Assembly: GCA_051867285.1 (NCBI GenBank)
Contig: JBJDYL010000097.1
Location: 740-64,739, forward strand
DNA length: 64,000 nucleotides
Reading direction: 5' to 3'
DNA from: Faecousia sp.
Lineage (GTDB): Bacteria; Bacillota; Clostridia; Oscillospirales; Oscillospiraceae
This document shows positions 4,007 through 63,365 of the stretch, piece by piece. Within the stretch, counting starts at the first letter, position 1; each line of letters starts with the position of its first letter. The translations under genes were made by a program, and so were the position numbers. Under the pieces are notes generated by a model. It did no database searches. It had not been told where the DNA came from and saw only the letters and a list, made by a program, of their open reading frames with translations.

Positions 4007-4142
4007 GGCGATTCCTTTCTTGCGTTTCTGGGAGGTGATTCTTTCAGGCATAAGAAAAGGCCTCCACCTCCGCAAAAAGCGGAAATGGAGGCGTGATTGG
4101 AACAATTCGTCCCCGTGCCGAGTAAAGCGTGAGTCTAGAATG

Positions 4143-4181
4143 AAAAAGCCCGTCGAGCGTGCTGCGCTCGATGGGCTTTTT
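4143..4181. terminator. Bidirectional intrinsic terminator
   Basis: AAAAAGCCCGTCGAGCG-TGCTG-CGCTCGATGGGCTTTTT. Confidence 0.6.
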
Positions 4182-4183
4182 GT

Positions 4184-4495
4184 TCAGGTATATGCTGTTT
4201 TTAGTTCCTTTGCCAGAAGCATTCCCACTTGCACACCATGCACAAATCCGGCTTGTTCGTAGTCCCGGCAAAGGGCGCAGACGGGATTCACGATCGTATC
4301 CATCTCCCGCAGGGGTAATTCGTTCATTGCCTGGTACAATTCCCGGAAACCGGCTTTAATCTCATCATTATCCATGTTGTTTGCATCATTGTATGCTTCA
4401 TACAAAAGGGTCAGGGCAGAATTGCCATCGCCAAAGTTCGGCGGTTTATCGGCAATATAGCGGTCAAGAAAAGAAACAAATTCCTGTGCAGTCAT
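4184..4495 (-). CDS. Hypothetical protein of mobile-element type
   Basis: 103-aa ORF overlapping the tnpV stop; helical, ending in a GFVHGVQVGMLLAKEL motif. Confidence 0.65.
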   Translation of the reverse strand: MTAQEFVSFLDRYIADKPPNFGDGNSALTLLYEAYNDANNMDNDEIKAGFRELYQAMNELPLREMDTIVNPVCALCRDYEQAGFVHGVQVGMLLAKELKTAYT

Positions 4496-4839
4496 TTATA
4501 AATCAGCTCCTCACGGAGTATTTCCTCCGCCCTGTCCCGGATGTTGTTCATGCGCTGCACCCATTGCATTGGGTCTCTGGCTTTCAATGCTTCCGTGATT
4601 TCCTCGGCGGCTTTCATCTGGGATACCAGCGTGTCCAGCCGTAGCTGCGCCTGTTCGTTCAGGTCTGAAAGATAGGTCCAAAGCTTCCCGGACAGAATCA
4701 GATTGGTGTAGGTAATGGGATGCGTTGCCTTCAGGTATTCCCGGTGCATCCGCCCCCATTTCCCGATGGGTCGTGTCTCCTCCGGCAAGGTCAGGTCGGG
4801 AATGTAATAATCCCCACATTTGACATATGCGATTTCCAT
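4492..4839 (-). CDS. tnpV: TnpV family protein
   Basis: MEIAYVKCGDYYIPDL...IGKWGRMHREYLK...ITEALKARDPMQWVQRMNNIRDRAEEILREELIY. SD GGAGG supports the start at 4839. Confidence 0.88.
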   Translation of the reverse strand: MEIAYVKCGDYYIPDLTLPEETRPIGKWGRMHREYLKATHPITYTNLILSGKLWTYLSDLNEQAQLRLDTLVSQMKAAEEITEALKARDPMQWVQRMNNIRDRAEEILREELIYK

Positions 4840-5906
4840 ATTGCTTACCTCCTGATTTGGTGTAAACCCATTGTACTGGAGATTCACCCAATGCGCGAAT
4901 GTGCGAAAGAAGGCTTGCGTATAAACATGGATCTGTAATCCCATATTTGTCCTCGACGCCCTGAGATACGGGAAGTCACCAGATGGCAGCTTGCTGTGCT
5001 GCTCCATAGGAATCTAACCTCCCCGCCTTCCTTATGGCCGGGCCGCGAGTTACGGAAGTATCATTATCCCTGTGCAGGTTCGTCGCTGTGCCGGTTGCAA
5101 TCCGACATTTTGGGGCTGGCATGAATCGCTGTTCCTTTTCGGGAAGTCTCGGCGTGCCGCCCACATAGCTCCTTGCACGGTAATGTATCTGGTGAATGAT
5201 ATTCAGTTTTCAAGATTCAGGTTGTGGCTTTTTACATGCGTATTGTACCGATTCCAAAGGGCTTCCAACAGGGACTGGTTGTGCTACTTTTTCCTACTTT
5301 GCTAGCACAAATAGTGCTAGTTCCACCTGACGGGTGGTAACGGACTGCACGCTCAGAACGTTCGCTCTGTTTGCTATTATTCTAAAGGAAATGGATTCCG
5401 TTTTTTAGGAACTAACTTGTCACATTATGGTAGCGGTTGATCACATTTGCGTATTTTTCGCCAGCGCGGTCAGCTGCGAGGCGATATCCAGAAGCGCTGT
5501 ATCTTCATCCTCCAAATGTTGCAAAGGAGCTGCAGGCCATGGCAGGCTTCCCTTTTTCTACATCGTGCAAACGAACTTTGTAAACGCACAGGGGAAAAGC
5601 TGGACTGGGGAAATGGATTATATGAACCACCGGGTAGAAACACATTGCAATAATGCCGGGGTGTCGCGTTTCGCGACTCCCCGGCATCTCTTCACAGATA
5701 ACCGGTCAAGCGTCTTCTGTACAAACTGTCCTGTATTCTGTATAGTTTCCTCTGCCTCCGGTCGCCCCTGTAAATCTTCCCGATTTTATTCATTTGATTA
5801 TCTTTAACGTTAGAAGGGTGTCGCGAAACGCGACACCCTTTCGAGATTTGACAAAAGTGCGCACGACTGATCACCGCGCGGAATACTATTAATTTCATCT
5901 TTATTC

Positions 5907-6004
5907 TCACACACATTTATTCAACGAGTGTGTGTGAATTTTTGTTGCATTCTTGTCACCTGGTGGATATAATAAAATAAGGGCACACAAAAACAGCATG
6001 TGTG
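5907..6004 (+). promoter_or_regulatory. sigmaA promoter of the abiE operon, flanked by two inverted repeats
   Basis: TTGCAT (5945-5950)-17 bp-TATAAT (5968-5973). IR1 TCACACACA-N13-TGTGTGTGA (5907-5937); IR2 CACACA-N9-TGTGTG (5984-6004). Confidence 0.7.
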
Positions 6005-6035
6005 AGCGAATTTTATGTTGAAAGCAGGTGATTGC

Positions 6036-6641
6036 GTGGATCTTCGTGCAGCCGCAAGGGATGTAATCGAGAGCAAAGGCGGCATCGCCAAATCCGCTGA
6101 TTTTGTAACAGCAGGAATCCGTGCAGTCGATGTTATCAGTCTGTGCAATGCCGGTTACCTGGATCGTGTTCGGCATGGCTACTATCAAATGGCCGAGCAG
6201 AATAAAGCCACGGAGGAGCAGATGCTGGCGACACTGATTCCCCAAGGCATCGTATGCGTGGAATCCGCGCTATTCTATTACGGATACAGTGACTTTGCAC
6301 CGCGTAAGTGGTCTGTTGCCGTTCCACGAACGATATCCAGAACGAAGCTGGATGTAGATGCTCTTCCTCTGCAAACCTATTTTGTTCAGCAGGATCTGTA
6401 TGAGCTGGGAAAAACCACCGGGGACTTCCATGGTGTTACGCTGCCTGTATATGACAGGGAGCGTACAATCTGCGATTGCTTCAAGTATCGTTCCCGACTG
6501 GATACAGAACTGTTTTCCAAGGCACTGAATGCTTATGCAAACGATCCCAAAAAGAACCTGAACAACCTTTCCATATACGCAAAAAAACTGCGAGTATATA
6601 AAAAAGTAATCGAACTGATGGAGGTGCTTCTTAATGGCTGA
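6036..6641 (+). CDS. abiEi: AbiEi family type IV TA antitoxin/transcriptional regulator
   Basis: N-terminal wHTH (LDRVRHGYY), GIVCVESALFYYG, VYDRERTICDCFKYR. GTG at 6036 follows SD AGGTGA (the track ORF starts at 6015). Confidence 0.88.
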   Translation: MDLRAAARDVIESKGGIAKSADFVTAGIRAVDVISLCNAGYLDRVRHGYYQMAEQNKATEEQMLATLIPQGIVCVESALFYYGYSDFAPRKWSVAVPRTISRTKLDVDALPLQTYFVQQDLYELGKTTGDFHGVTLPVYDRERTICDCFKYRSRLDTELFSKALNAYANDPKKNLNNLSIYAKKLRVYKKVIELMEVLLNG

Positions 6642-7533
6642 TATGGCAGCGTCTGTACTGGCAAGACTGAAAAATAAAGCCGCTGCAAGCGGGAGAAGCC
6701 ACCAGCTGTGCCTGCAGCTCTTTTGCCAGGAAGAATTCCTGCGTCGTCTGGAAAAATCCAGATATGCCGAGAACTTTGTTCTGAAGGGCGGACTGTTTGT
6801 ATATGCGGTTACGGACTTTGACAGCCGAGTGACCGTTGATGTGGACTTCCTGCTTCGCAGGATTCCCAATACCCCGGAGCAGGTAAAAGCGGTGCTTGAG
6901 GAGATTATTGCCGTTCCCAGCGAAAATGATTTTGTGACCTTTGAAATCAAGAGTGTTGCGCCGATTGCCGTAACCAAGAAATATGCCGGTGTGGGCGCAA
7001 CGGTGGTGGCCAGGATCAAAAACACCCGGACACCTTTCGGCATTGATTTTGGTATCGGCGATGTCATCGTTCCGAAGCAGGAGAAGCGGAAAATCCCCAC
7101 TCAGCTGGAAGGGTTCGATGCTCCGATGGTCAATACATATTCTCTGGAGACCACCATTGCGGAAAAGCTGGACGCGATTCTGAATCTGATGGAGTTCTCC
7201 AGCCGCATGAAGGATTACTACGATATTTATTATCTTGCCAATAAGTTCGATTTTGACGGAGCAGTGCTGACGGAGGCTCTGAGAAAGACCTTTGCCAATC
7301 GCAGCCATGTCTTCACAGTTGCACAGTTTGAGCAGATTGTCGCATTCGATGGTGATGAAGCCATGCAGAAAAAGTGGCGGGCGTTCTGCCGGAAAACGGA
7401 CATCAAGACCGATGATTATAGCACCGTGCTGCAAACGATCAAGGTTTTCCTTACAAAACCATTCACTGCAGCGGTGGACGGTGGATCATTTAATGAGAAG
7501 TGGTACGCATCAACGCAGTGTTGGCTGTTCTGA
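6634..7533 (+). CDS. abiEii: AbiEii family nucleotidyltransferase toxin
   Basis: FVLKGGLF...RVTVDVDF, YSLETTIAEKLDAI, SRMKDYYDIY; overlaps abiEi. Confidence 0.92.
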   Translation: MADMAASVLARLKNKAAASGRSHQLCLQLFCQEEFLRRLEKSRYAENFVLKGGLFVYAVTDFDSRVTVDVDFLLRRIPNTPEQVKAVLEEIIAVPSENDFVTFEIKSVAPIAVTKKYAGVGATVVARIKNTRTPFGIDFGIGDVIVPKQEKRKIPTQLEGFDAPMVNTYSLETTIAEKLDAILNLMEFSSRMKDYYDIYYLANKFDFDGAVLTEALRKTFANRSHVFTVAQFEQIVAFDGDEAMQKKWRAFCRKTDIKTDDYSTVLQTIKVFLTKPFTAAVDGGSFNEKWYASTQCWLF

Positions 7534-7649
7534 ACAAGCAGCATGGAATCAATAAGCAGTAAAGAACAGTACACGATTCTACGATAAAAGATATATTGCA
7601 GCATACTGCAACGGACTAACTACTAAATACTGATCAGGGTGGCGATTAG

Positions 7650-8435
7650 ATGAGATTTGGTACTTTTTTACTTCGTGTTGATAACAGGCAGGAAGCATCG
7701 CTGGACGATCTGAAACGGGTATGTGAAATTGGTTTAAAGAGGTTTCAGCCTCTTGGTCAAAAGAATCTATATATGATTGATACGGATATCATAGATGACC
7801 GTTATTTCTGGTTGTCATGTGACTATGATGATGCTGTTATCTTTAAGGATTATGTTGTCAACCAAGAAACCGGTGAGACCGAGCCCAATCCGAGAAGTAA
7901 AAACCAAGTTGAGCTCAAGAAACAGTTTTTCGTGTGTTATGATACCCAGAGCCATTTTCTGTATATAAGCGATTTGGGACGCAGAGCGACACTGACTGCA
8001 TATTTATCTGACTCAATCCAAAAGAATTTTTCAATCAAAAATGTATATGCTTCGGTCGATGAATTCTGTGAAAGGATAAAATCCATTCGCGGGTTTAAGT
8101 ACACCCAGGTCAATAATATTTTTGGTCGGGCAAGCGATATCTTTCAGCAGGTCGGCGATATATGGGGATTAGATTTGCCTTCCAAAGTGCAGTTGAAGGT
8201 TGGCTATGACGATATCCCTGTTCATGAAGGCCGCGCATTGATTGACAGGTTCCATCGGAAACGAGAGGAGTTTCAAGAAGTAATCGTTATTGGTGTAGAC
8301 GACGAAGGTGTTGAGCAGACATTTGACTTCTCCTCTGTCATCAAAAGAATTGACATTTCTCCAATAAAGGATGAAAATGAGCAGTATGACCCACGAGAAG
8401 TCAGAGAATTGCTACTGGCTGAGTTGAGGAAATAG
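7650..8435 (+). CDS. Hypothetical soluble protein (261 aa), candidate defence component
   Basis: Long ORF, visibly AT-richer than the flanks; only 3 bp from the next gene. Confidence 0.75.
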   Translation: MRFGTFLLRVDNRQEASLDDLKRVCEIGLKRFQPLGQKNLYMIDTDIIDDRYFWLSCDYDDAVIFKDYVVNQETGETEPNPRSKNQVELKKQFFVCYDTQSHFLYISDLGRRATLTAYLSDSIQKNFSIKNVYASVDEFCERIKSIRGFKYTQVNNIFGRASDIFQQVGDIWGLDLPSKVQLKVGYDDIPVHEGRALIDRFHRKREEFQEVIVIGVDDEGVEQTFDFSSVIKRIDISPIKDENEQYDPREVRELLLAELRK

Positions 8436-53229: not shown

Positions 53230-55293
53230 TTAGTCGTCGTTCTTGGCCTCTGCAATGATCTTGGCCTGGTTGGCCTTGGGCACTTCCTCGTAGCGGACGA
53301 AGTCCAGCGTGAAGCTGCCGCGGGCCTGGGTCATGGCGCGCAGGTCGATGGCATAGCTGCCCATCTCTGCCATGGGAACTTCTGCCTCGATGACGGTATT
53401 GCCGTCATGGTCAGGGTTCATACCCATGGGACGGCCGCGGCGCTTGCTCAGATCGCCCATAACATCGCCCACATAAGCCTCGGGGACGCTGACTGCCAGC
53501 GCGCCGATAGGCTCCAGCAGAGTGGGGTTGGCATTGGGCATAGCTTCCTTGTAAGACAGGATGGCCGCCAGCTTGAAGGCCATTTCGTTGGAGTCAACGG
53601 GATGGTAGGAGCCATCGTACAGCACGGCCTTCAGACCGACCATGGGATAGCCAGCCAGGGGGCCCTTCTGAACGGCTTCCTGCAGACCCTTTTCCACAGC
53701 GGGGTAGAAGTTTCTGGGCACGCTGCCGCCGAACACTTCCTCTGCGAAAATCAGATCATCCTGCTCGTCCTGGGGCTCGAAGCGTACCCAAACGTCGCCG
53801 AACTGACCGGAACCACCGGTCTGCTTCTTGTGACGGCCATGGGCCTGCACAGTCTTTTTGATCTTCTCCCGATAAGCGACCTTGGCAGGAGCCAGCACTG
53901 CGTCCACGCCAAAGCGGCTCTTCAGCTTGGAAACCAGCACGTCCAGATGCTGGTCGCCCAGACCGGACAGCACCAGCTGCTTGGTCTCAGCATTGTTCAC
54001 CAGATGGAAGGACGGATCTTCCTCGTTCAGGCGGTTCAGGCCAGCGCCAACCTTGTCTTCCTGACCCTTGGTCTTGGGAGCAATGGCCATGGAGTAGCAG
54101 GCAGGGGCGTAGGGAATCTGCTTCAGGGAGACAACCTTTCTGGGATCGCACAGGGTATCGCCGGTCTTGACCTTATCCATCTTGCCGATGGCGCCGATAT
54201 CGCCGCAGCCCAGAACCTTGACCTCGGTCGCCTTCTTGCCGCACATGGCGTACAGACGGCCCAGCTTCTCGGTCTCGCCGGTACGGGCGTTGACCAGCGC
54301 AGTGTCAGAGGTGATTTCGCCGGACAGAACCTTGACATAAGAGTACTTGCCGTACTGATCGGACACGGTCTTCCACACGAAAGCAGAGGGCACGCCGCCG
54401 GGAGAAACCACGAATTCCTCGGTCTCACCGTCAGCGTTGGTGGCCTTATGGTAGTTGCCCTGCACAGGGTTGGGCAGCAGGTCAACGATGTGATCCATGA
54501 GCATCAGGCTTCCCAGGCAGGTAACGCCGGAGCCGCACAGCACGGGGAACAGGCTCAGCTCTTCCACACCGGTATGCAGGCCGTCCAGCATTTCCCGGTA
54601 AGTAAACTCGTCACCCTCGAAGAAGCGGTCCATCAGAGCCTCGTCGGTTTCGGCCACTGCTTCCTTCAGGGCGTCGTTGAACTCCTCGATGACCGCCAGC
54701 TTATCCTCGGGCACCGCAATTTCCACCCGCTTCAGCTTCTGCATCTCGTAGGCGCGCTTGTTCAGCACGTCGATGATGCCGGTGACCTTGTGGCTCGCAT
54801 CCCAGATGGGCACGACCACGGGGGCAATCTTGTTGCCGTACTTCTCCCGCAGGGCTTCAAAGGTGGCATTGTAGTCGGAGTTATCCTCGTCCACCTTGGA
54901 AATGTAGACAAACCGGGGCATATTCCGCTCTTCGCAGTATTTCCAGGCCTTCTCAAAGCCAACCGTAATGCCGTCCTTGGCGGAGCACACCAGGATAGCC
55001 GCATCAGCAGCACGGAGCGCCTCCATCACGGCACCGGAGAAGTCGAAAGCGCCGGGGGTGTCCAGCAGATTGATCTTGATGTTCTTGTACTCCAGCGGCA
55101 CCACAGAGGTGGAGATGGAAATATGGCGCTTGATCTCCTCAGGATCGTAGTCGCAAACGGTGTTGCCGTCGGCATTCTTGCCGATACGGTCGATGGCACC
55201 GGTCATGTACAGTAAGCTTTCCGCCAGTGCGGACTTGCCGCTGCCGCTATGGCCCAGCAGACAGATGTTACGGATGGAATTAACAGTATACAT
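53230..55293 (-). CDS. Elongation factor G paralogue (EF-G-like)
   Basis: GHSGSGKS, DTPG, SKVD, HKKQTGGSGQFGDV, DGSYHPVDS. Not in an rpsL-rpsG-tuf context; G1 differs from canonical AHIDAGKT. Confidence 0.9.
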   Translation of the reverse strand: MYTVNSIRNICLLGHSGSGKSALAESLLYMTGAIDRIGKNADGNTVCDYDPEEIKRHISISTSVVPLEYKNIKINLLDTPGAFDFSGAVMEALRAADAAILVCSAKDGITVGFEKAWKYCEERNMPRFVYISKVDEDNSDYNATFEALREKYGNKIAPVVVPIWDASHKVTGIIDVLNKRAYEMQKLKRVEIAVPEDKLAVIEEFNDALKEAVAETDEALMDRFFEGDEFTYREMLDGLHTGVEELSLFPVLCGSGVTCLGSLMLMDHIVDLLPNPVQGNYHKATNADGETEEFVVSPGGVPSAFVWKTVSDQYGKYSYVKVLSGEITSDTALVNARTGETEKLGRLYAMCGKKATEVKVLGCGDIGAIGKMDKVKTGDTLCDPRKVVSLKQIPYAPACYSMAIAPKTKGQEDKVGAGLNRLNEEDPSFHLVNNAETKQLVLSGLGDQHLDVLVSKLKSRFGVDAVLAPAKVAYREKIKKTVQAHGRHKKQTGGSGQFGDVWVRFEPQDEQDDLIFAEEVFGGSVPRNFYPAVEKGLQEAVQKGPLAGYPMVGLKAVLYDGSYHPVDSNEMAFKLAAILSYKEAMPNANPTLLEPIGALAVSVPEAYVGDVMGDLSKRRGRPMGMNPDHDGNTVIEAEVPMAEMGSYAIDLRAMTQARGSFTLDFVRYEEVPKANQAKIIAEAKNDD

Positions 55294-55605
55294 AGTGGTC
55301 AAATACTCCTTTCGGGAAGGGAAGCCTTCCTCGCAACTATAGGTAGGGGTGCACGGCACCGCAATACAGACATTATACACGAAAGGAGCGGTTTATGCAA
55401 TGCTTATTTTCGTCAGAATGCAAAATTGTGTAAAATCCCCCATGGACACTTGTTTTCCTGTGCAAAACACACAAATTATATTTCTGTTTTCCAGCAAGGT
55501 GCATAAAAGAAAGGAAGGTGCGGAACTGGGTGTGTGCAGTGTGAGCTTGGCAGTTTCCCGCATTTCCGACCAATCTTCTACGCGCGTCCGCCCCGGACGG
55601 CGCGA

Positions 55606-55635
55606 AAAAGCCGCCGGAAACATTCCGGCGGCTTT
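55606..55635. terminator. Intrinsic terminator downstream of the spoIIQ-like gene
   Basis: AAAGCCGCCGGAA-ACA-TTCCGGCGGCTTT. Confidence 0.7.
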
Positions 55636-55677
55636 CGCCCTCTTTACAGAGGCAAGGAGGAAAAACGCAGATTCTTT

Positions 55678-56358
55678 TTACTGTCCCAGCGCCAGAAATT
55701 CCGCCGGATCCACCGGCTCATCGTGGCAGGTGACACCAAAGTGCACATGGGCGCCCAGAGTGCTCTCCACGATGGCGCTGTCAGAGGCATAGCCGATGGT
55801 CTGCCCCATGGTCACGGTATCCCCGGGTTTTACCGTCAGATTTTCCGCCAAGGAAGAATACTTGCTGGTATACCCGTCGGCATGGCGGATGACCACGGTA
55901 TAGCCCATGGCGTCGTCCTCATACACGGTGTACACCTCGCCGTCCGCAGCAGCGCGGACTTCTGCCCCCGCCTCCGCCGCCAGATCTACGCCGTTGTGAA
56001 CCCGCCAGTCCCGGGTGGTCTGGTTATAGCTCAGCGCTTCCATGGAATATCCGAAGATGGATTCCCCCTCCACGGGAGACATGGTTTTCAGGGGTTTCTT
56101 CTCCGTGGGGACGGGGGTGTTTTCCGTTGCCGCCGGAGCCGTGGTCTGCGCCGGAGGCTGGGTGGCGATCACCGGCACATCCTCCGTCTGCGGAGTCAGC
56201 GCCGGAATCTCTCCAACGGTTTCCTGAAGAGAAACCTCCTGCGTCAGATTTGCGTTTCTGTAGTACACATAGCCAGTGATCCCGATTGCCGCGGCACACA
56301 GGATCAGGGCTATGTAGTAGCCCTTACCGCCGCGACCGGATCGTTTCTTGTCGCTCAT
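55678..56358 (-). CDS. Membrane-anchored M23/LytM peptidase, SpoIIQ-like
   Basis: N-terminal TM (GYYIALILCAAAIGITGY), low-complexity linker, YNQTTRDWRVHNGVD, HVHF; sigmaF-like promoter upstream. Confidence 0.82.
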   Translation of the reverse strand: MSDKKRSGRGGKGYYIALILCAAAIGITGYVYYRNANLTQEVSLQETVGEIPALTPQTEDVPVIATQPPAQTTAPAATENTPVPTEKKPLKTMSPVEGESIFGYSMEALSYNQTTRDWRVHNGVDLAAEAGAEVRAAADGEVYTVYEDDAMGYTVVIRHADGYTSKYSSLAENLTVKPGDTVTMGQTIGYASDSAIVESTLGAHVHFGVTCHDEPVDPAEFLALGQ

Positions 56359-56379
56359 AACTAAGCACCTCCGAGGCTG

Positions 56380-56408
56380 ATTATGGGCAGGTTTTTCAGA
56401 AGTTAAAC
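56380..56408 (-). promoter_or_regulatory. sigmaF/sigmaG-type forespore promoter
   Basis: GTTTA-15 bp-GCCCATAAT on the minus strand, resembling the sigmaF consensus (GYWTA-N15-GGnnAnAnT). Confidence 0.6.
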
Positions 56409-56425
56409 AGTTTTTTATAAAAAAA

Positions 56426-56548
56426 CCTTCCCCTTTGGGGAAGGCGAAACGGAAGAGGGAAACACGCGCACATACACCTTGGGACAAATCAACCAGAAAA
56501 CCTCTCCTGACCTCGCTGGCGCCCGGCCACCCTCCCCAAAGGGGAGGG
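56426..56548. repeat. REP-like element with palindromic ends
   Basis: CCTTCCCC-TTT-GGGGAAGG at 56426-56444 and CCCTCCCC-AAA-GGGGAGGG at 56530-56548. Confidence 0.6.
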
Positions 56549-56558
56549 CATATTGGTT

Positions 56559-56921
56559 CTACTTCGGCACAATACCGTTGGTCAGCGCCTGCGTAAAGGT
56601 GAATTGATAACTGACCACATTCTCCTTTGGCTCCTGGGTCAGCTCCAGCCCGGTGAAGTAGCAGTAACGAATGCCCCAGATGGGGTGTTCCAAATTGCCG
56701 GGGGTGCTGTCCTCTATCAGCAGCGCCAGCTGTTTGAACTGGTCGTAGGCGTCCGCACCATAGAATACGCCGGTACCGGTGATGGTTCGTTTCAAATCCC
56801 CCATGCCATCGAAATAGGTCACGCCGCTTTCCGTATGGTATTGAGGATCCCGGCTGGTTTTTTCCTCATAAGTGTGGGGATTCCGGGGCCAGACAAAGGT
56901 TTTATAGCTAAGACAATCCAT
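56559..56921 (-). CDS. Phage tail-tube-initiator / DNA-circularisation N-terminal-like protein
   Basis: LSYKTFVWPRNP, MGDLKRTITGTGVFYG, PGNLEHP, FTGLELTQEP..VSYQFTF. Confidence 0.6.
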   Translation of the reverse strand: MDCLSYKTFVWPRNPHTYEEKTSRDPQYHTESGVTYFDGMGDLKRTITGTGVFYGADAYDQFKQLALLIEDSTPGNLEHPIWGIRYCYFTGLELTQEPKENVVSYQFTFTQALTNGIVPK

Positions 56922-57623
56922 TTATACCTCCCTGCGCGCCAGCGCCACGCCTTTGCGGGTGCGCCGCATTCCTTCTTTGGTAAATTCCCGCCGGGTACTG
57001 AGCCAGGTGCAGCCGGTGAATTCCTCGGTTTTCTGATCCGTCACCAGCCGCAGGGTAAATCCCGGTTCCGGCTCTTCCGTGATGCCGGAACCTGCCGGAA
57101 TCAGCTCCTCCAGATCGATGCTCCAGTAATGGCTGCCCTCGCTGACGCCTGTGGGAACCGCTTCGCCCATGACAAACTCCACCTGTCTGCCAGTGTATTC
57201 CTCCACCGTGATCTTCATGGCGAACCGCTGAACCAGATCGTCGATGTAGCAGTAAAACCCTGGCCAGATTACGCAGTTGTCCGCGTCGGTAATTCCGGTA
57301 AAGGTTGCCAGTACGCTCACCACATACACCTGAGACACCCCGTCGTAGGTACATCCGTTCTGCACGCACACCGCCCCGGCCCAACGCAGAATCTCCGTCG
57401 CCCGCAGGGCTTCCACCTCACAGGCGGTGCCGCCGGTGGAGGCGGGGCAAATAATGCTGACCTCCATAGTCACCGTCAGATTGGCGCGGTCCACCTTTTC
57501 GATATGTACCGTTGCCACGGTTTCCCCGATCTGGGGATACTTCTGGCCGGGGTAGGCAGCATCCGCACGGAACCCTGCTTCCCGCAGCCGCCGCAGCACC
57601 AACTCTAGGATTGAGTACCCCAT
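56922..57623 (-). CDS. Putative tail terminator, possibly fused to a tube-like domain
   Basis: Position after the head-closure gene; apparent two-domain beta-rich pattern; start set at MGYSIL. Confidence 0.5.
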   Translation of the reverse strand: MGYSILELVLRRLREAGFRADAAYPGQKYPQIGETVATVHIEKVDRANLTVTMEVSIICPASTGGTACEVEALRATEILRWAGAVCVQNGCTYDGVSQVYVVSVLATFTGITDADNCVIWPGFYCYIDDLVQRFAMKITVEEYTGRQVEFVMGEAVPTGVSEGSHYWSIDLEELIPAGSGITEEPEPGFTLRLVTDQKTEEFTGCTWLSTRREFTKEGMRRTRKGVALARREV

Positions 57624-57949
57624 GTATCGTTCACACCCTTCTCCACGCACAGCCCCCATTGGTAAATGGGCTGATTTCCATAGTAATATGGCTCCACCCG
57701 ACGAAACAGATAGGTTCGATTCCCCAGAATCAGGGTATCCCCCTCCTTCACCGTCACGCCCACGGGGCCCATGTATACATACTGCCCCCGGGAGATTTCT
57801 CCCAGCAACGACACAACACTCTCCATATTCTGCCAGCTTTTGGAATTCACCGCCCGGAAGAATCCCCGGGCGGCTTTGGTTTCCTCACCGCTGACAATGG
57901 TCATGTCCGTGCCGTACCGAGCCATGACCTTTTCCACGGTCTGCCGCAT
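57605..57949 (-). CDS. Putative head-closure (stopper) protein
   Basis: 114 aa, beta-rich, VKEGDTLILGNRTYLFRRVE; canonical position. Confidence 0.6.
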   Translation of the reverse strand: MRQTVEKVMARYGTDMTIVSGEETKAARGFFRAVNSKSWQNMESVVSLLGEISRGQYVYMGPVGVTVKEGDTLILGNRTYLFRRVEPYYYGNQPIYQWGLCVEKGVNDTWGTQS

Positions 57950-57952
57950 TGG

Positions 57953-58315
57953 TCACACCCCCTGGAAGCAGAAGGAATCCTTGAGATACGGGCGCAGCAA
58001 TCCCAACGCCTGCCGCGTCAGGCTCTCGGGAGAGAGTTGGCTGTTGCTCTGCCCCTGCTTCACCGTCAGATCTCCGGCCTGGAATTCCTGAATTTCCCCG
58101 CCGGCTCTGCCCTGGTACCACTGCCCCAGTGCATACAGGCTGGCAGCCGCCACAAAATCCTCCCGGCACTGTTCCGGCGTCACATCTTCTCTCAGCTGTG
58201 CCCCCAGCGTATTCACGGCAGCGCTGCACAGCAGCCGCAGCAGCTCCCGGCCGGGGGCGTCCAACTCCCCCGCCAGCAGCTCTGCCTGAGAAAAAGCCTG
58301 ATCAGCTACCATCAT
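57953..58315 (-). CDS. Putative head-tail connector (adaptor)
   Basis: 120 aa, helical with an IQEFQAGDLTV hairpin and LLRPY end; ATGA overlap with the capsid gene. Confidence 0.65.
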   Translation of the reverse strand: MMVADQAFSQAELLAGELDAPGRELLRLLCSAAVNTLGAQLREDVTPEQCREDFVAAASLYALGQWYQGRAGGEIQEFQAGDLTVKQGQSNSQLSPESLTRQALGLLRPYLKDSFCFQGV

Positions 58316-59337
58316 ACGTTCAGCACGCAGGCCGCGCCGTCGCAGATTTTGCCGAAACCGGAGATGGAGGTGATGGCGGCACGCTCCAGCTGCCGGTCAA
58401 TGAGCTTGTCGTACTCCACCAGCACATCCCCAGCGCGAACCAGCTCCAGCGCGTAGCGATTATCCAGTCCGATAATTACGCCGTCCGCCACGGCGGAGGT
58501 GCGGTGCAGCTGTGCGCCCAGAGGAGATGTCAGCTTGCCGGTACCCTGGAAATTCAGCCCGGTGAGGGGATTCTGCAGTTCAGGCACCTTCAAAAGCTTC
58601 ATCATGGTGGCAGTGGAGCACAGAATGGTGTTCATGGTGTAGGGGTCAAACTGTCCCCAGAACTCCACCAGCTGGTCGTAGCCCAGTGTGCCTCTGGTGC
58701 CGGAAATGGGGCTGGTGCCGATAGTGTACTGGACGGCGGCATTGTCGTTGCCATCCCCCTCGATCAGAACCTTCACCGCGTCGGCAAGCTGCTGCTTCTG
58801 GATGTGCGCGCCGATCTGCCGCAGCATGACGCTGAACAGATCCAGCTTCTGGAACCGCAGCGCCTCATAGGAAGCCACCAGCATTCTGCCCCGCTTGGTC
58901 AGGCTCACCAGATGCTCCTTGGTTTTGACCTCGGTTTCGGGGATGGACGCACCTTCCTCCACATCCTTCAGCTCCTTGTCGCTGTCCGTGGGGTTGGAAT
59001 AGATGGAACGGTAGTCCATGGCGTCGATCACCGTGGTGGTAGCGGTGATGGCAGGCAGAATATCGTTTTCCTCCATACCCTGCCGGACGGTTCTGGCGAT
59101 GTACTCCGGGAACAGCACCGCAGAATCCATAGTACGGAAGAATTTCTCCACGGGAGAAGATCCTGCCCCCTTTGCCCGGATGCCGAAGCGCTTCAGCTGA
59201 CGCTGAAAGGCATCGGTGCCCTCCAGCGCGGTGCCCCGGTAATTCTCGCTGGGATCCAGAGACTCCAGCACCTGGGTAAAGCTCATGCCCGCCTGCCGGT
59301 ACATGCCCTTTTCCAGTTTCAGATTGTCATAACCCAT
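58312..59337 (-). CDS. Major capsid protein (HK97 fold)
   Basis: VLFPEYIARTV, VEEGASIPET, LTKRGRMLVASYEAL, LIEGDG; canonical position after the protease; SD GGAGG. Confidence 0.88.
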   Translation of the reverse strand: MGYDNLKLEKGMYRQAGMSFTQVLESLDPSENYRGTALEGTDAFQRQLKRFGIRAKGAGSSPVEKFFRTMDSAVLFPEYIARTVRQGMEENDILPAITATTTVIDAMDYRSIYSNPTDSDKELKDVEEGASIPETEVKTKEHLVSLTKRGRMLVASYEALRFQKLDLFSVMLRQIGAHIQKQQLADAVKVLIEGDGNDNAAVQYTIGTSPISGTRGTLGYDQLVEFWGQFDPYTMNTILCSTATMMKLLKVPELQNPLTGLNFQGTGKLTSPLGAQLHRTSAVADGVIIGLDNRYALELVRAGDVLVEYDKLIDRQLERAAITSISGFGKICDGAACVLNV

Positions 59338-59397
59338 AATTTCATTTCCTCCTGTAATTGTAATAGTGTATGGTCACCGGATTTCACCGATTGTCCA

Positions 59398-60294
59398 TCA
59401 AATCAAAAAACCGCTCTCCACGGCATCCGCCTTCCCGGAAAAGCCCCCCAGCTGAGTAACAACGGGGAGCATCTCATCCAGCCGCGCCTGCAAAGCCTCC
59501 TTCAGCGCCAGCAGATCCTCGGCGGCGGCGGTCTTTGCCAGATTCCGCAGAACCTGCTCAGAAACCCCCAGCTCCAACGCCAGACCCAGCCGCACCACGC
59601 TGTCCTCCAGTTCCTTCTGATACCGCTTTCCCAGCTCCGCCTGCTTGCACAGAACCCGGTATTCCCCCTGCGCGCCGTGGAGCTCCGCCAGCTCCTTCAG
59701 CGCCGGGGTTTTTCCACCCATGGCCTTCAGCACGCCGGCCTCCCGCTGGGCAGGCACCGCCACGAAGGAAAATTCGTAGGCATCCACCGGCTCCTTCAGA
59801 ATCACCGCACAGGTCTGCCCCTCGTAATCTTCCCCCTTGACGTGCCCGCAGGTGCCGTACTCGCTGCCGCAGATGGAGCATACCGCCTGCCCCATGGCGC
59901 AGCCCACGCTCACCTCTTTTTTGATACCTGCCTCAATGTCGGCGATGATTTCGTCGTTGCTGCCGCCCCGGCGGATGTACGCCCAGGCCTTGATGTAGCT
60001 GACGCCCTGCTCTTTGACCACCTGGGTCTCAAAAATCCGGGCCACCTGTTTCTCCGCGCTCCACTTGTGATCCACGATGCCGGTTTTTCCGATGAACAGC
60101 TTCGCCAGCGCAGGCAGCGCCCCGGTGTCGAATCGCTCCCCATCCCGGTCAACCTGGTCATCGCACAGCCGCAGGGAGAACACATACACCTGCTCCCCAT
60201 TCAGCCGTGATTTTGCCAGCGCATTGATTTGCTCCAGCTGCATGGCGGTGGGCGCCCCGCTGTTTACCGCCTCCGCCGCTTTCCTTACTTCCAT
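59398..60294 (-). CDS. Prohead protease-scaffold fusion
   Basis: DRDGERF, IVDH, EVSVG, YEFSFVAVPAQ (HK97-type protease pattern), a CSIC...CGH insert and a C-terminal coiled coil. Confidence 0.78.
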   Translation of the reverse strand: MEVRKAAEAVNSGAPTAMQLEQINALAKSRLNGEQVYVFSLRLCDDQVDRDGERFDTGALPALAKLFIGKTGIVDHKWSAEKQVARIFETQVVKEQGVSYIKAWAYIRRGGSNDEIIADIEAGIKKEVSVGCAMGQAVCSICGSEYGTCGHVKGEDYEGQTCAVILKEPVDAYEFSFVAVPAQREAGVLKAMGGKTPALKELAELHGAQGEYRVLCKQAELGKRYQKELEDSVVRLGLALELGVSEQVLRNLAKTAAAEDLLALKEALQARLDEMLPVVTQLGGFSGKADAVESGFLI

Positions 60295-60316
60295 TTCATT
60301 TCCTCCTGTGATACTT

Positions 60317-60418
60317 TTGTCATTGCGCGCCAGTCCGCACAGAAACTATGGTATGATTGCCACTGACAATCATGGATTATCTTGATTCGCTGCGCGGAGC
60401 ACCACTGGCGTGGCAATC
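60317..60418. repeat. Nested REP-like palindrome
   Basis: GCCAGT...ACTGGC outer stem with a ~60-bp inner segment containing the ATGATTG...CAATCAT hairpin. Confidence 0.55.
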
Positions 60419-60421
60419 TCC

Positions 60422-61564
60422 TCAATTACCGCGCGCCTCTGCCCGGTATTTTTCCGCCTGCGCCCGGTTCAGTTCTGCCTGAGATTCCTGCGTGATGTCC
60501 TGCAGGCTGATGTCATCCCACTCAATCTGCACCCGGTTGTCCAAGCCCTCCAGCGCGAGGTAAGTCTGGCAAATTTTCCGCATGGCAGGCTCCACCGCCC
60601 GGCGGAGCGCCCACAGTTCCGAGGTCAGCAAATCCGCCTGCTGGGTGCTCATCCGTTCCGTAGTGCTCCAGCTTAAGCCCAGCAGGAAGGGCGGCAGACC
60701 GGTTTTCGCCACCAGCTGTTCCAGGATCTGCCGCACGGGCACTTCGGAATCCAGAATGGGAGCTTCCCCGCCGATGACCTTGATTTCCACGTCTCCCACC
60801 GCCACAAAATCCCGGACGGTGCCGTTTTTGGTGTCCTCCATGGCCTTCGCCCATTCCTCCGCAATGGCCTTGCCCCGCTCCTGAGCTGCTGCGCCGTCCA
60901 GTTCCTCGCCGCCCTTGCAGACCACACTGTAGCGAACGTTGCCTGCACGCTCCCAGTTCACACCGATGGTGTTGTAAATTTTCAGCAGCACGTCCGCCAG
61001 GAAGGGCATTCCCCGGAACATACTCACGCCATAGGGGTGGGAGGGTTCCGGATGCCAGGTGGTAAACAGCAGCAGATTCTGATAGGGCAGCGGGCGCATC
61101 AGCCCGTGCTCATCCATGCCCCACAGCACCGTTTCCAGGGCATTCTCCCCTTCCTGCACCTCCAGTGTCGTTACGTCCCCCCAGCAGACTGCCCGCAGCC
61201 GTCCACCGGCCACTATCAGTTCCCCCACAGCCCGGCCGTAGGTCAACAGGCTGTCCAGGTAGCCGCTTAAGAAACTCTCAATGCCCATCTGCCCCCGACC
61301 GCAGGGCATCATTTCCAAAAAGGTGTTGAGCCTTTTCTGAGCTTCCGGGCTGCCGCACTTTACCTGAAAACCGCCGCACAGCCGAACCATCTTCCCCACA
61401 GCGGCATCCAGTACCGGGATGGCCTCCCGCATTTCCCGGTATACCCGTTCCTCCCCGCCGCCCAGGGGTACGAAGCCCCGCATGGCGCCGAAGGGATGGG
61501 TGTCCCCGCAGCGCAGCTGACACACCGCCGCCACACCGCCGGATTCCTTCTTTTTCCGTTTCAA
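60422..61564 (-). CDS. Phage portal protein
   Basis: TTG start with SD AAGGAG; LLTYGRAVGE, PYGVSMF, GLPPFLLG, VQIEWDDI; directly after terL. Confidence 0.85.
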   Translation of the reverse strand: MKRKKKESGGVAAVCQLRCGDTHPFGAMRGFVPLGGGEERVYREMREAIPVLDAAVGKMVRLCGGFQVKCGSPEAQKRLNTFLEMMPCGRGQMGIESFLSGYLDSLLTYGRAVGELIVAGGRLRAVCWGDVTTLEVQEGENALETVLWGMDEHGLMRPLPYQNLLLFTTWHPEPSHPYGVSMFRGMPFLADVLLKIYNTIGVNWERAGNVRYSVVCKGGEELDGAAAQERGKAIAEEWAKAMEDTKNGTVRDFVAVGDVEIKVIGGEAPILDSEVPVRQILEQLVAKTGLPPFLLGLSWSTTERMSTQQADLLTSELWALRRAVEPAMRKICQTYLALEGLDNRVQIEWDDISLQDITQESQAELNRAQAEKYRAEARGN

Positions 61565-61585
61565 TCAAACAACTCCTTCCATATT

Positions 61586-61696
61586 TGAAATGCAAAATGC
61601 TGAATGCGAAATGCAGAATTGTAGGATTTCCTTCGGAAATGATTTTATTTTTATCCGAGGAGCGGACACCACTCTGCATTTTTCATTTTGCATTCA
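61586..61696. repeat. Heptamer-armed inverted repeat element
   Basis: Left arm TGCAAAA/TGCTGAA/TGCGAAA/TGCAGAA; right arm CTCTGCA/TTTTTCA/TTTTGCA. Confidence 0.65.
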
Positions 61697-62941
61697 TCTT
61701 CTTCCCCGTTCCACGCTGCACGCCGCGAAGCCCCCGCTTTTCTCCCCCAGTACAGTGGATACGAAGTAGCGCATATCGTCCATGGCGTGATCGTGCTCCT
61801 TGCGCACCCGATCTTTGCCGCTGCCTCCCGGCTCCCACAGGTACTCCCCCAGCTCCCGGATACAGTCGGCACAGGTTTCGCAGATCACGATTTTTCCGGT
61901 TTTCAGGCAGTCCGAAGTGAGACGAATGCCGCTGAGCACATCGTTTTTCGCCTTTCGCACCCGCCAACCCTTCCGCCGCAGCACCTCAATAAAGCTCGCC
62001 GCAGACGGATCCACGATCACGCCCCGAATCTCCCTGCCTCCAGCCAGAGCCGCCAGCGCATCGGCGTATTCCGCGTCGGTCATCTGCCGCTGCTGCTTCC
62101 GGGAGTCGAAATAGAATTCCTTCACCCGGTACCACACGCCTGCGCTTCTGCCCCAAAGGCCCATGGAGGTGGGATTTACCGTTCCATAATCGCAGGAAAT
62201 GTACCATTGCTCGCAGGCTTCCGGGACTTTTCCCAGCATATCTGCCGTAAAAAAGTCATAAACCCGTCCTTCCGCCTGCACCCACTGTCCTAAAATGTAC
62301 CGCTGGTAGAATACGCCCGTATACAGCCGCTGGTAACGCCCGCGAATGGCCTCCGTCAGGGAAGGATTATCCTCCATGGTAAAGGAAAGCCGCAGGCAGT
62401 TCCGTTTTTCCGCTTCCAGAATCCAGGTTTTGTAGAACCAGTGCTCCGGCCCCTCCGGGTTGCAGTTGAACCACAGGCGGCTTCCGGCAATGCTGCACCT
62501 AGCGCAGGCCTGCTCCACAAAGCTGCGGGGCATCAGCGCCGTTTCGTCCAGCAGCACCCCGGCAAAGGTAATGCCCTGGATCAGTGACGCGGAGCTTTCG
62601 TCCCGCCCGCCGAAGGTGTAAAAGTGGTTTTTGTGCCCCCACAGGGTCACCGTCACCAGATTTTCCGTTCTTTTTTCCCGCCAGACAGCTCCCAGGGCGG
62701 TCAGCTGGGGCAGAATTTCCGACAGCACATTCCGCCGCAGGGACGCGATGGTTTTTCCGCACACGCCAAATTTCTGCCCGTCAAAACAGCACATGGCCCA
62801 CAGGAAAAAGCTCAAGCCCATGGCCAGAGTTTTTCCGGAACGAACCGCCCCGTCGCAGACAATGGCCTCCTTCTCCCGATAAGGCGAATCCGGCATCCAC
62901 CAGGTCAGTACAATTCTCTGCTTGGGAGAAAACTCCCTCAT
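61694..62941 (-). CDS. terL: Terminase large subunit (PBSX-like)
   Basis: Walker A DGAVRSGKT, Walker B VLLDE, NCNP, nuclease motifs SCDYG, VDPSA, DHAMDDMRY. Confidence 0.93.
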   Translation of the reverse strand: MREFSPKQRIVLTWWMPDSPYREKEAIVCDGAVRSGKTLAMGLSFFLWAMCCFDGQKFGVCGKTIASLRRNVLSEILPQLTALGAVWREKRTENLVTVTLWGHKNHFYTFGGRDESSASLIQGITFAGVLLDETALMPRSFVEQACARCSIAGSRLWFNCNPEGPEHWFYKTWILEAEKRNCLRLSFTMEDNPSLTEAIRGRYQRLYTGVFYQRYILGQWVQAEGRVYDFFTADMLGKVPEACEQWYISCDYGTVNPTSMGLWGRSAGVWYRVKEFYFDSRKQQRQMTDAEYADALAALAGGREIRGVIVDPSAASFIEVLRRKGWRVRKAKNDVLSGIRLTSDCLKTGKIVICETCADCIRELGEYLWEPGGSGKDRVRKEHDHAMDDMRYFVSTVLGEKSGGFAACSVERGRR

Positions 62942-63261
62942 GGAGTGTCACCGCCCCGCAGTGCCTGCAAAAATTCTGCCATTTCCCCTTCCTGTCCGCC
63001 GGTTTCCGCGGAAAGTGCCTCCAACGCCCGCAGGCGGTCAATGAGCCTGACCTCCACGGTCCCCTTGTCGTTGCGTTTGACTTCACTGAGCAGGCTCAAA
63101 TCCAGCCCCTCCAGATCCGGCTGTTCCTCCAGCACCAGCTTCACGCAATCGTTGGCTCTGCCGAACGCCAGCTCTGCCAGCCGCCGTATCACATCCTGCT
63201 TTCGGATTTTCCCGGAACGGATTCTTCTGTCCAGCGCGCCCGCTGATTCTTCCCGTTTCAT
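62938..63261 (-). CDS. terS: Terminase small subunit (short form)
   Basis: VIRRLAELAFG...LSEVKRNDKGTVEVRLIDRLRALEAL; ATGA overlap with terL; SD GAAAGGAGG. Confidence 0.78.
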   Translation of the reverse strand: MKREESAGALDRRIRSGKIRKQDVIRRLAELAFGRANDCVKLVLEEQPDLEGLDLSLLSEVKRNDKGTVEVRLIDRLRALEALSAETGGQEGEMAEFLQALRGGDTP

Positions 63262-63365
63262 TGCAGCCTCCTTTCACCAGTAGCCCCAAACAGGCCGAAA
63301 GTTGCACACGGACGTGCAACCTCGGAAAAATTTTTAATGCTTATCGCGTTTACTCAGCTGCGTAA

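What the first reader, a model, noticed from the sequence alone, without database searches (positions are those of the whole stretch)
62938..63261. Small terminase appears to lack the N-terminal DNA-recognition HTH
Seen: after a strong SD, the 107-aa protein reaches the oligomerisation-type segment (VIRRLAELAFG...EVRLIDRLRALEAL) within about 20 residues, leaving no room for an HTH domain. Known: in SPP1/SF6-type TerS the N-terminal HTH recognises pac, and the RcGTA small terminase is notably short. Inference: packaging has lost sequence specificity, which is the mechanistic expectation for a GTA.
Basis: partly seen in the sequence, partly recalled or inferred. Interest (0 to 1): 0.8.

Follow-up and report, generated by a model that had tools for sequence, protein, structure and literature searches.

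The report
Small terminase lacking its DNA-recognition domain
The 107-residue protein is a real, conserved phage-type small terminase that has lost the roughly 40-residue domain that normally reads the packaging site. It heads a tail-less phage head cassette embedded among ordinary genes in many gut Oscillospiraceae, which fits the known pattern of gene transfer agents but does not prove random DNA packaging.

Summary
The ORF at 62938-63261(-) encodes 107 aa, has a strong SD, overlaps terL by ATGA, and cannot be extended because a stop lies 4 codons upstream. It matches only positions 54-126 of Pfam Terminase_2. Full-length relatives (144-169 aa) carry about 40 extra N-terminal residues, and their profile hits the solved DNA-binding domain of phage SF6 G1P. 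The window protein begins in the basic helix that follows that domain.

The short form is not a local accident:
- 66 of 67 orthologous cassettes in Faecousia/Oscillospiraceae species have it.
- dN/dS is about 0.25.
- A conserved basic arm (R-I-R-x-G) remains.

Every cassette inspected lies among housekeeping genes, with no integrase or replication genes. No cultured phage in 50,697 records carries this lineage.

Equivalent host-embedded, tail-less cassettes exist with an intact HTH, so HTH loss does not define the domesticated state. Random packaging is untested.

A terminase without a DNA-binding domain is already described for RcGTA gp1 and for Faecalibacterium FpGTA. This scan also found the same cassette type earlier on other DNA (e1-4210383). 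I class it as a new member of a known kind, of moderate interest.

The parts
62938..63261 (-). terS: a 107-aa HTH-less small terminase of the Terminase_2 lineage
   Evidence: The ORF is. Pfam aligns residues 11-85 to profile positions 54-126 of 141. PHROG small-terminase families phrog_51 and phrog_2606 also match. About 3,900 homologues of the same length exist. dN/dS is 0.25.
63196..63261 (-). Basic N-terminal arm (residues 1-22, pI 11.5, 8 K/R) with the conserved motif L-x-x-R-I-R-x-G. It corresponds to the helix and linker that follow the HTH in full-length relatives and in SF6 G1P.
   Evidence: Residue conservation and dN/dS of 0.45 come. AF2 predicts helix 3-16 with pLDDT about 90 from residue 11 on.
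63004..63195 (-). Conserved core (residues 23-86): two helices, a beta-hairpin and a helix. This is the inferred oligomerisation part.
   Evidence: dN/dS is 0.17. It matches Pfam profile positions about 62-126. In the AF2 model pLDDT is above 90, with H21-33, H37-44, E58-63, E69-73 and H76-87.
62941..63003 (-). Acidic C-terminal tail (residues 87-107) with the conserved F-L-x-A-L-x-G-G motif. This is the inferred TerL-binding segment.
   Evidence: Conservation and dN/dS of 0.43 come. AF2 predicts helix 93-101. The role is inferred from the general TerS architecture described in PMC6854486.
63267..63275 (-). Shine-Dalgarno GAAAGGAGG, 5 nt before the ATG
   Evidence: The sequence is. The same GAAAGG(G)AGG lies before the family start codon in nearly all 67 loci.
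63295..63325 (-). Conserved stem-loop (core GTTGCAC-N6-GTGCAAC) about 40 nt upstream of terS. In most orthologues a T-run follows, making it terminator-like. In this window the T-run is weak.
   Evidence: It is present in nearly all 68 aligned loci, whatever the upstream host gene. Pairs covary and G.U pairs occur on the sense strand, with 0 of 500 shuffles reaching the observed score. It also occurs upstream of HTH-bearing terS genes in L046 and L127. No Rfam family matches.
61694..62941 (-). terL (415 aa), translationally coupled to terS by an ATGA overlap
   Evidence: Matches are Pfam Terminase_6N and Terminase_6C and phrog_2 at E=7e-51.
56559..61564 (-). Rest of the cassette: portal, protease/scaffold-like protein, HK97-type capsid, then proteins of 120, 114 and 245 aa, and a 120-aa protein with the N-terminal domain of a tail-hub protein. 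No sheath, tube, tape-measure, baseplate or lysis genes are present.
   Evidence: Family matches are. The gene order is collinear in 80 species-level loci. The flanks are galE on one side and an M23 peptidase plus an EF-G paralogue on the other.

Best explanation
The gene encodes a functional small terminase of the SF6/SPP1 (Terminase_2) lineage. [quoted passage not shown]

What remains:
- a conserved arginine-rich arm (residues 1-22);
- the oligomerisation core (residues 23-86);
- an acidic C-terminal segment.

The gene is translationally coupled to terL and heads a 6.7-kb phage head-and-packaging cassette. The cassette has no integration, replication, tail or lysis genes. It is kept as a single copy among housekeeping genes in about half of Faecousia species and in related families.

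Inferred mechanism: the protein still forms a ring and recruits and regulates TerL. Without the HTH it binds DNA only weakly and without sequence preference, through the basic arm. Headful packaging would then start at many chromosomal sites, as proposed for the RcGTA small terminase.

Shown here: absence of the HTH, homology to Terminase_2, conservation, purifying selection and the host-embedded context. Inferred: ring formation, TerL binding, non-specific DNA binding and random packaging.
For: - ORF, SD and ATGA coupling are in the sequence, and the open frame of 111 codons rules out a longer N-terminus.
- Only the C-terminal two thirds of the Terminase_2 profile is matched. The same holds for other short family members.
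- Full-length relatives (P0151, P0154, P0156, P0160 and the L030 ORF) match the profile from position 1-7 onward and pass the cut-off.
- A profile of full-length relatives hits SF6 G1P at E=2e-10. Its first 54-61 positions correspond to the separately solved DNA-binding domain (4zc3, 2cmp). The window protein aligns only from about profile position 45 onward.
- 66 of 67 orthologous loci encode the short form behind a conserved SD.
- dN/dS is 0.25 overall and 0.17 in the core.
- The AF2 model with 101 sequences has pLDDT 85 and shows no extra domain.
- No second Terminase_2 gene exists in the genome. No conserved neighbouring HTH gene exists either, because the upstream flanks differ between species.
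- No integrase or replication gene lies within 10 kb in any of the contexts read.
- The cassette is single-copy in 52 of 96 high-quality genomes of the genus. It is also common in two other families of the order.
- In 50,697 phage records this TerS lineage matches only unverified faecal virome scaffolds.
- Published precedents are RcGTA gp1 (PMC6854486) and FpGTA, together with GTA-like packaging in Oscillospiraceae (PMC12946183).
Against: - No packaging or DNA-binding data exist for this protein.
- HTH-bearing TerS genes head equivalent host-embedded cassettes. These include a tail-less one (L127/L130) and cassettes in the cultured species Clostridium facile and Phocea massiliensis. The HTH is therefore compatible with the same lifestyle.
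- The conserved basic arm could confer some specificity.
- No tail or lysis genes were found in the 83.6%-complete genome, so release and delivery of DNA are unexplained.
- The window protein scores just below the Pfam cut-off (25.8 against 26.1 bits).
- Fold searches gave no significant match to any solved TerS.
Confidence: 0.6

Rival explanations
1. The short TerS still directs site-specific packaging. The conserved arginine-rich arm, or another determinant such as TerL itself, recognises a pac-like site. The cassette would then package DNA starting at one chromosomal position, much as in lateral transduction, rather than at random.
For: - The arm carries a conserved R-I-R-x-G motif under selection, with dN/dS of 0.45.
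- A strongly conserved cis element lies 40 nt upstream of terS in almost all cassettes.
- Some phage TerS proteins bind DNA through parts other than an N-terminal HTH; PMC6854486 discusses this for P22 and T4.
Against: - The conserved element shows G.U pairs and compensatory changes on the sense strand, and in most loci a T-run follows it. That fits a transcript hairpin or terminator better than a protein-read pac site.
- The element is the same upstream of HTH-bearing and HTH-less terS genes.
- Only four loose matches to the motif occur in the genome.
Confidence: 0.2
2. The cassette is a helper-dependent element, similar to a capsid-forming satellite. It makes its own small heads and borrows tails and lysis functions from a co-resident phage. 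The short TerS is part of a discrimination mechanism rather than a sign of random packaging.
For: - The cassette has head, packaging and neck genes but no tail or lysis genes.
- Capsid-forming satellites have a comparable structural gene set. A preprint mentions this when discussing Oscillospiraceae (10.64898/2026.07.08.737213).
Against: - No integrase, excisionase, primase or replication gene lies in any of the contexts read.
- The cassette sits between different housekeeping genes in different species, and no att-like boundaries were noticed.
- It is single-copy in about half of the species of a genus.
Confidence: 0.12
3. The gene is a decaying remnant. A 5' deletion truncated terS in a dead prophage, and the protein has no function.
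For: - Some orthologous cassettes are visibly damaged. terL is split in L042/L116 and L080, and no terS or terL match was found in L108.
- The cassette was not found in about half of the species of the genus.
Against: - The same short form with the same SD occurs in 66 of 67 species-level loci.
- dN/dS is 0.25 with saturated dS.
- All nine ORFs are intact here, and the capsid protein is 80-97% identical across species.
- About 3,900 homologues have the same length.
Confidence: 0.05

Closest known systems
G1P small terminase of Bacillus phages SF6/SPP1 (Pfam Terminase_2; PDB 3zqp/3zqq full length, 2cmp/4zc3 DNA-binding domain)
   Same: It belongs to the same sequence family, shown through full-length relatives whose profile hits 3zqp at E=2e-10. 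It shares the central conserved segment and the motif around the beta-hairpin (D-R-x-x-A-L-E). It sits directly upstream of a headful-type TerL.
   Different: It lacks the equivalent of the N-terminal HTH domain and begins in the basic helix that follows that domain. It is 107 aa, against about 145 aa. The gene sits in a host-embedded cassette, not in a phage genome.
RcGTA gp1 (rcc01682), the first described GTA small terminase (PMC6854486)
   Same: It is about 100 aa, lies directly upstream of terL, begins at the oligomerisation region and has no N-terminal DNA-binding domain. It belongs to a phage-derived cluster without replication or integration genes. The proposed consequence, weak non-specific DNA binding, is the same.
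   Different: No sequence relationship was detected here. According to the paper, RcGTA gp1 was modelled on the T4-like 44RR TerS. RcGTA has a complete tail and a separate lysis locus, and its packaging is shown experimentally. None of that is known for this cassette.
FpGTA I of Faecalibacterium prausnitzii (PMC12946183)
   Same: It is a gut member of the same order. [quoted passage not shown] Its particles showed no visible tails. GTA-like packaging was also reported for Oscillospiraceae.
   Different: Homology could not be tested because no sequence was available here. This capsid lineage was found in only six of 26 families sampled in the order. FpGTA I is 10.5 kb with ten ORFs and has a second locus with baseplate, fibre and lysis genes. 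No such locus was found here.
PBSX-type defective prophage of Bacillus subtilis (the only control genome that matched Terminase_2)
   Same: From general knowledge, it is a Firmicute phage-like element that packages host DNA, and its terminase is of the Terminase_2/headful type.
   Different: Also from general knowledge, PBSX is a full-length myovirus-like element with tail, lysis and regulatory genes.

Membership tests
Pfam Terminase_2 (SF6/SPP1-type small terminase) | Match to the family HMM above the curated cut-off (26.1 bits) | tested here: inconclusive
   The window protein scores 25.8 bits at E=1.9e-5, just below the cut-off. Close short homologues score 30.9 bits (P0070) and 27.7 bits (P0164). 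Full-length relatives score 40-61 bits.
Pfam Terminase_2 (SF6/SPP1-type small terminase) | [quoted passage not shown] | tested here: not met
   Only profile positions 54-126 are matched. The alignment with full-length relatives shows about 40 residues missing. The profile of full-length relatives maps those residues onto 2cmp/4zc3. The open frame cannot be extended.
Pfam Terminase_2 (SF6/SPP1-type small terminase) | Central oligomerisation segment and C-terminal beta-hairpin region | tested here: met
   Residues 11-85 align to profile positions 54-126. In the AF2 model pLDDT is above 90, with two helices, a hairpin and a helix. Ring formation itself was not tested.
Pfam Terminase_2 (SF6/SPP1-type small terminase) | Gene directly upstream of a large terminase gene | tested here: met
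   terS overlaps terL by ATGA. TerL matches Terminase_6N and Terminase_6C.
GTA-type small terminase (as defined for RcGTA gp1, PMC6854486) | Small size, position before terL, and no N-terminal DNA-binding domain | tested here: met
   The protein is 107 aa, is coupled to terL, and has no HTH.
GTA-type small terminase (as defined for RcGTA gp1, PMC6854486) | Weak, sequence-independent DNA binding, and a requirement for packaging and particle maturation | not testable with these tools
   This needs EMSA and a deletion mutant.
Gene transfer agent (element level) | Phage-derived structural cluster without integration or replication genes, fixed in the host chromosome | tested here: met
   Housekeeping genes flank the cassette here and in every other context read, and no integrase is present.
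Gene transfer agent (element level) | Maintained by selection across a host clade | tested here: met
   It is single-copy in 52 of 96 high-quality genomes of the genus. The capsid protein is 80-97% identical. terS dN/dS is 0.25. The distribution is patchy and some copies are damaged.
Gene transfer agent (element level) | Particles carry random host DNA, with no preference for their own genes | not testable with these tools
   This needs particle DNA sequencing. Published virome data show GTA-like packaging in other Oscillospiraceae only (PMC12946183).
Gene transfer agent (element level) | Functions for release and delivery (tail or adsorption device, lysis) | tested here: not met
   No sheath, tube, baseplate or lysis genes are in the cassette. 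No homologues of the tail genes of related cassettes were found elsewhere in the genome, which is 83.6% complete. The search used relatives' proteins only, so divergent genes could have been missed.

The most novel reading that the evidence does not exclude
This cassette family offers a natural series in which otherwise equivalent, host-fixed head-and-packaging cassettes carry either an HTH-bearing or an HTH-less Terminase_2 small terminase. Several carriers are cultured species: Intestinimonas has the short form, and Clostridium facile and Phocea massiliensis have the full form.

If the short form packages DNA at random while the full form starts at a defined site, loss of the HTH would be shown to be the switch from site-directed to generalised packaging. 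It would have happened repeatedly after domestication, and in tail-less particles whose means of DNA delivery is unknown.
Probability: 0.3. Interest if true: 0.65.

Novelty: new member of a known kind. Interest (0 to 1): 0.45.

Why it matters
Recent virome studies report that gut Oscillospiraceae and related families package host DNA in a GTA-like way, but the responsible gene clusters in Oscillospiraceae have not been pinned down (PMC12946183; 10.64898/2026.07.08.737213).

This cassette is a concrete candidate. Its small terminase shows the one feature proposed to define GTA-type terminases. Close relatives with and without the HTH exist in cultured species, so the long-standing idea that the TerS DNA-binding domain sets packaging specificity can be tested directly by comparison.

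The concept itself is not new, and the same cassette type was already noted by this scan on other DNA.

Tried and rejected
- Fold searches of the confident AF2 model (pLDDT 85) against the PDB gave nothing significant. With Foldseek the best E was about 1, and SF6 3zqq_C ranked second at E=1.0. With VIA-align on 48,161 chains the best Z was 3.8. The extended monomer of a ring protein is probably a poor search object. This is no evidence about the fold.
- A first AF2 run with 23 sequences was of low confidence, pLDDT 54.
- A profile of the short family alone found no terminase among PDB sequences, only chance ankyrin matches. The link to SF6 G1P came only through the full-length relatives.
- Complex prediction with four copies, to test ring formation, was requested five times. 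The machine could not be reached, so no result exists.
- A tree of 136 TerS cores was built to count independent HTH losses. It has only 92 columns and is mostly unresolved. It needs 21 changes at the least, but well-supported branches force only one. Some 'short' rows are probably truncated gene calls. The number of losses is left open.
- Homology to FpGTA I could not be tested, because no sequence of it was reachable. The cluster look-ups named Intestinimonas, Clostridium facile, Massilioclostridium, Phocea/Merdimmobilis and Anaeromassilibacillus, but no Faecalibacterium.
- I looked for a separate HTH partner gene (a split TerS). The 415 bp upstream hold no conserved ORF. The Hpt gene found there in a sister species is absent here. 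Upstream neighbours differ between species.
- The 'viral' contigs (IMG/VR) and the 'Bacteriophage sp.' records that match are short host-like fragments or unverified virome scaffolds, not complete phages.

Full report
**The gene**

On the minus strand, 62938-63261 is an ATG-initiated ORF of 107 codons. A GAAAGGAGG Shine-Dalgarno lies 5 nt upstream of the ATG. The TGA stop overlaps the ATG of the next gene as ATGA. The frame is open for only 111 codons, so no longer N-terminus can be read.

The next gene is a 415-aa large terminase (Terminase_6N/6C; phrog_2 at E=7e-51). It is followed by:
- a portal (phrog_30703, E=1e-148);
- a protease/scaffold-like protein (phrog_16951);
- an HK97-type capsid protein (Phage_capsid_4; phrog_3922);
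- three small proteins without family matches;
- a 120-aa protein with the N-terminal domain of a tail-hub protein (DNA_circ_N; phrog_184).

The cassette (56559-63261) is bounded by galE on one side and by an M23 peptidase and an EF-G paralogue on the other.

**Is the HTH missing?**

Pfam Terminase_2 matches residues 11-85 to profile positions 54-126 of 141. The score is E=1.9e-5 and 25.8 bits, just under the 26.1-bit cut-off. Other short family members match from profile position 51-63 onward.

A profile search of 1.84 billion representatives gave 1,132 hits, whose lengths are bimodal. In proteins of about 95-112 aa the match begins at the N-terminus. In proteins of about 142-170 aa it begins near residue 38-60. 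Several 'long' hits are miscalled starts whose extension contains the translated SD. Thirty-nine of the 149 best representatives carry a real N-terminal domain with the Terminase_2 HTH signature. They match the Pfam profile from position 6-7 and pass its cut-off.

In the joint alignment the window protein lacks about 40 residues relative to these relatives. It starts in the segment that follows the HTH. Against a 169-aa relative from another family of the order the offset is 52 residues.

A profile of the full-length relatives hits the crystal structure of the SF6 small terminase (3zqp/3zqq, E=2e-10). Its first 54-61 positions coincide with the separately solved DNA-binding domain (4zc3, 2cmp). 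The window protein aligns only from about position 45 of that profile. This corresponds to the basic helix after the HTH and then the oligomerisation part.

An AlphaFold2 model built with 101 sequences is confident (pLDDT 85). It shows helix 3-16, helices 21-33 and 37-44, a beta-hairpin at 58-73, and helices 76-87 and 93-101, with no additional domain. Fold searches with this monomer were uninformative.

**Is the short form an accident?**

No. About 3,900 database homologues are almost all 106-107 aa. Among 80 species-level genomes carrying the cassette (Faecousia and other Oscillospiraceae), terS was found in 67. Sixty-six encode 102-118 aa behind the same SD. One (L127) encodes a 145-aa HTH-bearing protein.

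Pairwise dN/dS is 0.25 overall, 0.17 in the core, 0.45 in the N-terminal arm and 0.43 in the C-terminal tail. dS is saturated, so these values are rough. The arm is strongly basic (pI 11.5, 8 K/R in 22 residues) and keeps an L-x-x-R-I-R-x-G motif in about 90% of orthologues.

**Context**

The cassette is collinear in all 80 loci. Capsid identity is 80-97%, against 55-85% for TerS. Its neighbours are ordinary host genes, and they differ between species:
- galE and EF-G;
- a cation-efflux gene and alpha-amylase;
- ruvCAB and RNase J;
- nucleoside salvage genes;
- iscS and nifU.

No integrase, repressor or replication gene lies within 10 kb. The cassette is single-copy in 52 of 96 high-quality genomes of the genus. 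In an even sample of the order it is frequent in three families (11/21, 8/22 and 12/21).

More distant relatives have the same head genes plus a short contractile-tail module (sheath, tube, hub, Baseplate_J), again directly abutting host genes.

Both TerS forms occur in these host-embedded cassettes:
- Full-length: L044, L046, L030, L127/L130, Clostridium facile and Phocea massiliensis.
- Short: L048, Intestinimonas and Anaeromassilibacillus.

These assignments rest.

In the window's own genome there is no second Terminase_2 gene and no homologue of the relatives' tail genes. The genome is 83.6% complete. In 50,697 phage records the TerS lineage, short or long, matches only five unverified faecal virome scaffolds. 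The nearest named phage capsid is 25% identical.

**Interpretation**

A 2026 study reports GTA-like packaging of 4.6-8.9-kb fragments in Ruminococcaceae and Oscillospiraceae. It also describes an FpGTA operon in Faecalibacterium whose putative TerS lacks an obvious DNA-binding domain (PMC12946183). A preprint notes that GTA clusters in Oscillospiraceae remain unidentified (10.64898/2026.07.08.737213). The concept is therefore known. This is a further instance in the Terminase_2 lineage, in a tail-less cassette.

Two points limit the inference:
- HTH-bearing TerS genes head equivalent cassettes, so HTH loss follows domestication, or is independent of it, rather than defining it.
- The conserved basic arm may still bind DNA, and nothing is known about what the particles contain or how DNA would leave a tail-less head.

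I put about 0.6 on the GTA-type, low-specificity packaging role. I am far more certain (above 0.9) of the bare fact that this is a conserved HTH-less small terminase.

**A cis element relevant to the 'defined pac site' test**

About 40 nt upstream of terS, almost every cassette carries the same stem-loop (core GTTGCAC-N6-GTGCAAC). This holds whatever the upstream gene, and a T-run usually follows. Pairs covary, and G.U pairs occur on the sense strand. None of 500 shuffles reached the observed covariation. This favours a transcript hairpin, terminator-like, over a protein-read DNA site.

The element is present upstream of both HTH-bearing and HTH-less terS genes, so it does not track the HTH. 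In this window the T-run is weak and the simple terminator scan does not call it. No Rfam family matches. Its role is open. Options include insulation from read-through with antitermination, as described for CcGTA (from the title of PMC11150451, which I did not read), or an operator.

**Earlier notes of this scan**

The same cassette type was reported before on another genome as a tail-less domesticated head cassette (e1-4210383). An eroded TerS N-terminus was also noted elsewhere (e1-5175446). My results agree with both and were obtained independently here.

Noticed in passing
window 63295-63325 (-), and upstream of terS in L049-L128, L036, L038, L040, L042, L046, L048: A highly conserved stem-loop (GTTGCAC-N6-GTGCAAC, often with a longer stem) lies about 40 nt before terS in nearly all cassettes. 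It shows compensatory changes and is usually followed by a T-run. It looks like an element-borne terminator or regulatory hairpin and matches no Rfam family.
   Followed up: partly
L046 9181-13291; L048 11176-14931; L134 (Intestinimonas) 3800-8200; L037 14058-17810: Related cassettes carry a miniature contractile-tail module (sheath, tube, hub, LysM or Baseplate_J proteins). No tape-measure-sized gene is visible. They directly abut host genes. The Faecousia-type cassette has a single 200-245-aa protein in that position.
   Followed up: partly
L042/L116 6787-8036; L080 5655-6885; L108: Some orthologous cassettes are damaged. terL is split into two ORFs or matched in several separate pieces, one protease gene is shortened, and one locus gave no terS or terL match. 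Loss is therefore ongoing in part of the genus.
   Followed up: no
MT835769.1, MT835508.1, MT835952.1, MT836604.1, MT838993.1 (L037, L129): Five 'UNVERIFIED Bacteriophage sp.' records from a faecal virome are the only phage-database matches to this cassette. Two were inspected. One (L037) carries host-like genes such as DHFR, and in the other (L129) I saw no phage-like genes beyond the cassette. They may be host DNA recovered from the particle fraction.
   Followed up: partly
L130 15167-15952 and 311-559: In the locus with the HTH-bearing tail-less cassette, spo0A lies about 2.3 kb downstream and spoIIID lies upstream. Another note of this scan reported a similar cassette next to spo0A. This may be coincidence or a link to sporulation control.
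   Followed up: no
window 53230-56487 (-): An M23 peptidase (269 aa) and an EF-G paralogue (716 aa, 33% identical to a second EF-G-like gene on another contig) follow the cassette. The same pair follows it in the closest sister species, but not in more distant ones.
   Followed up: partly
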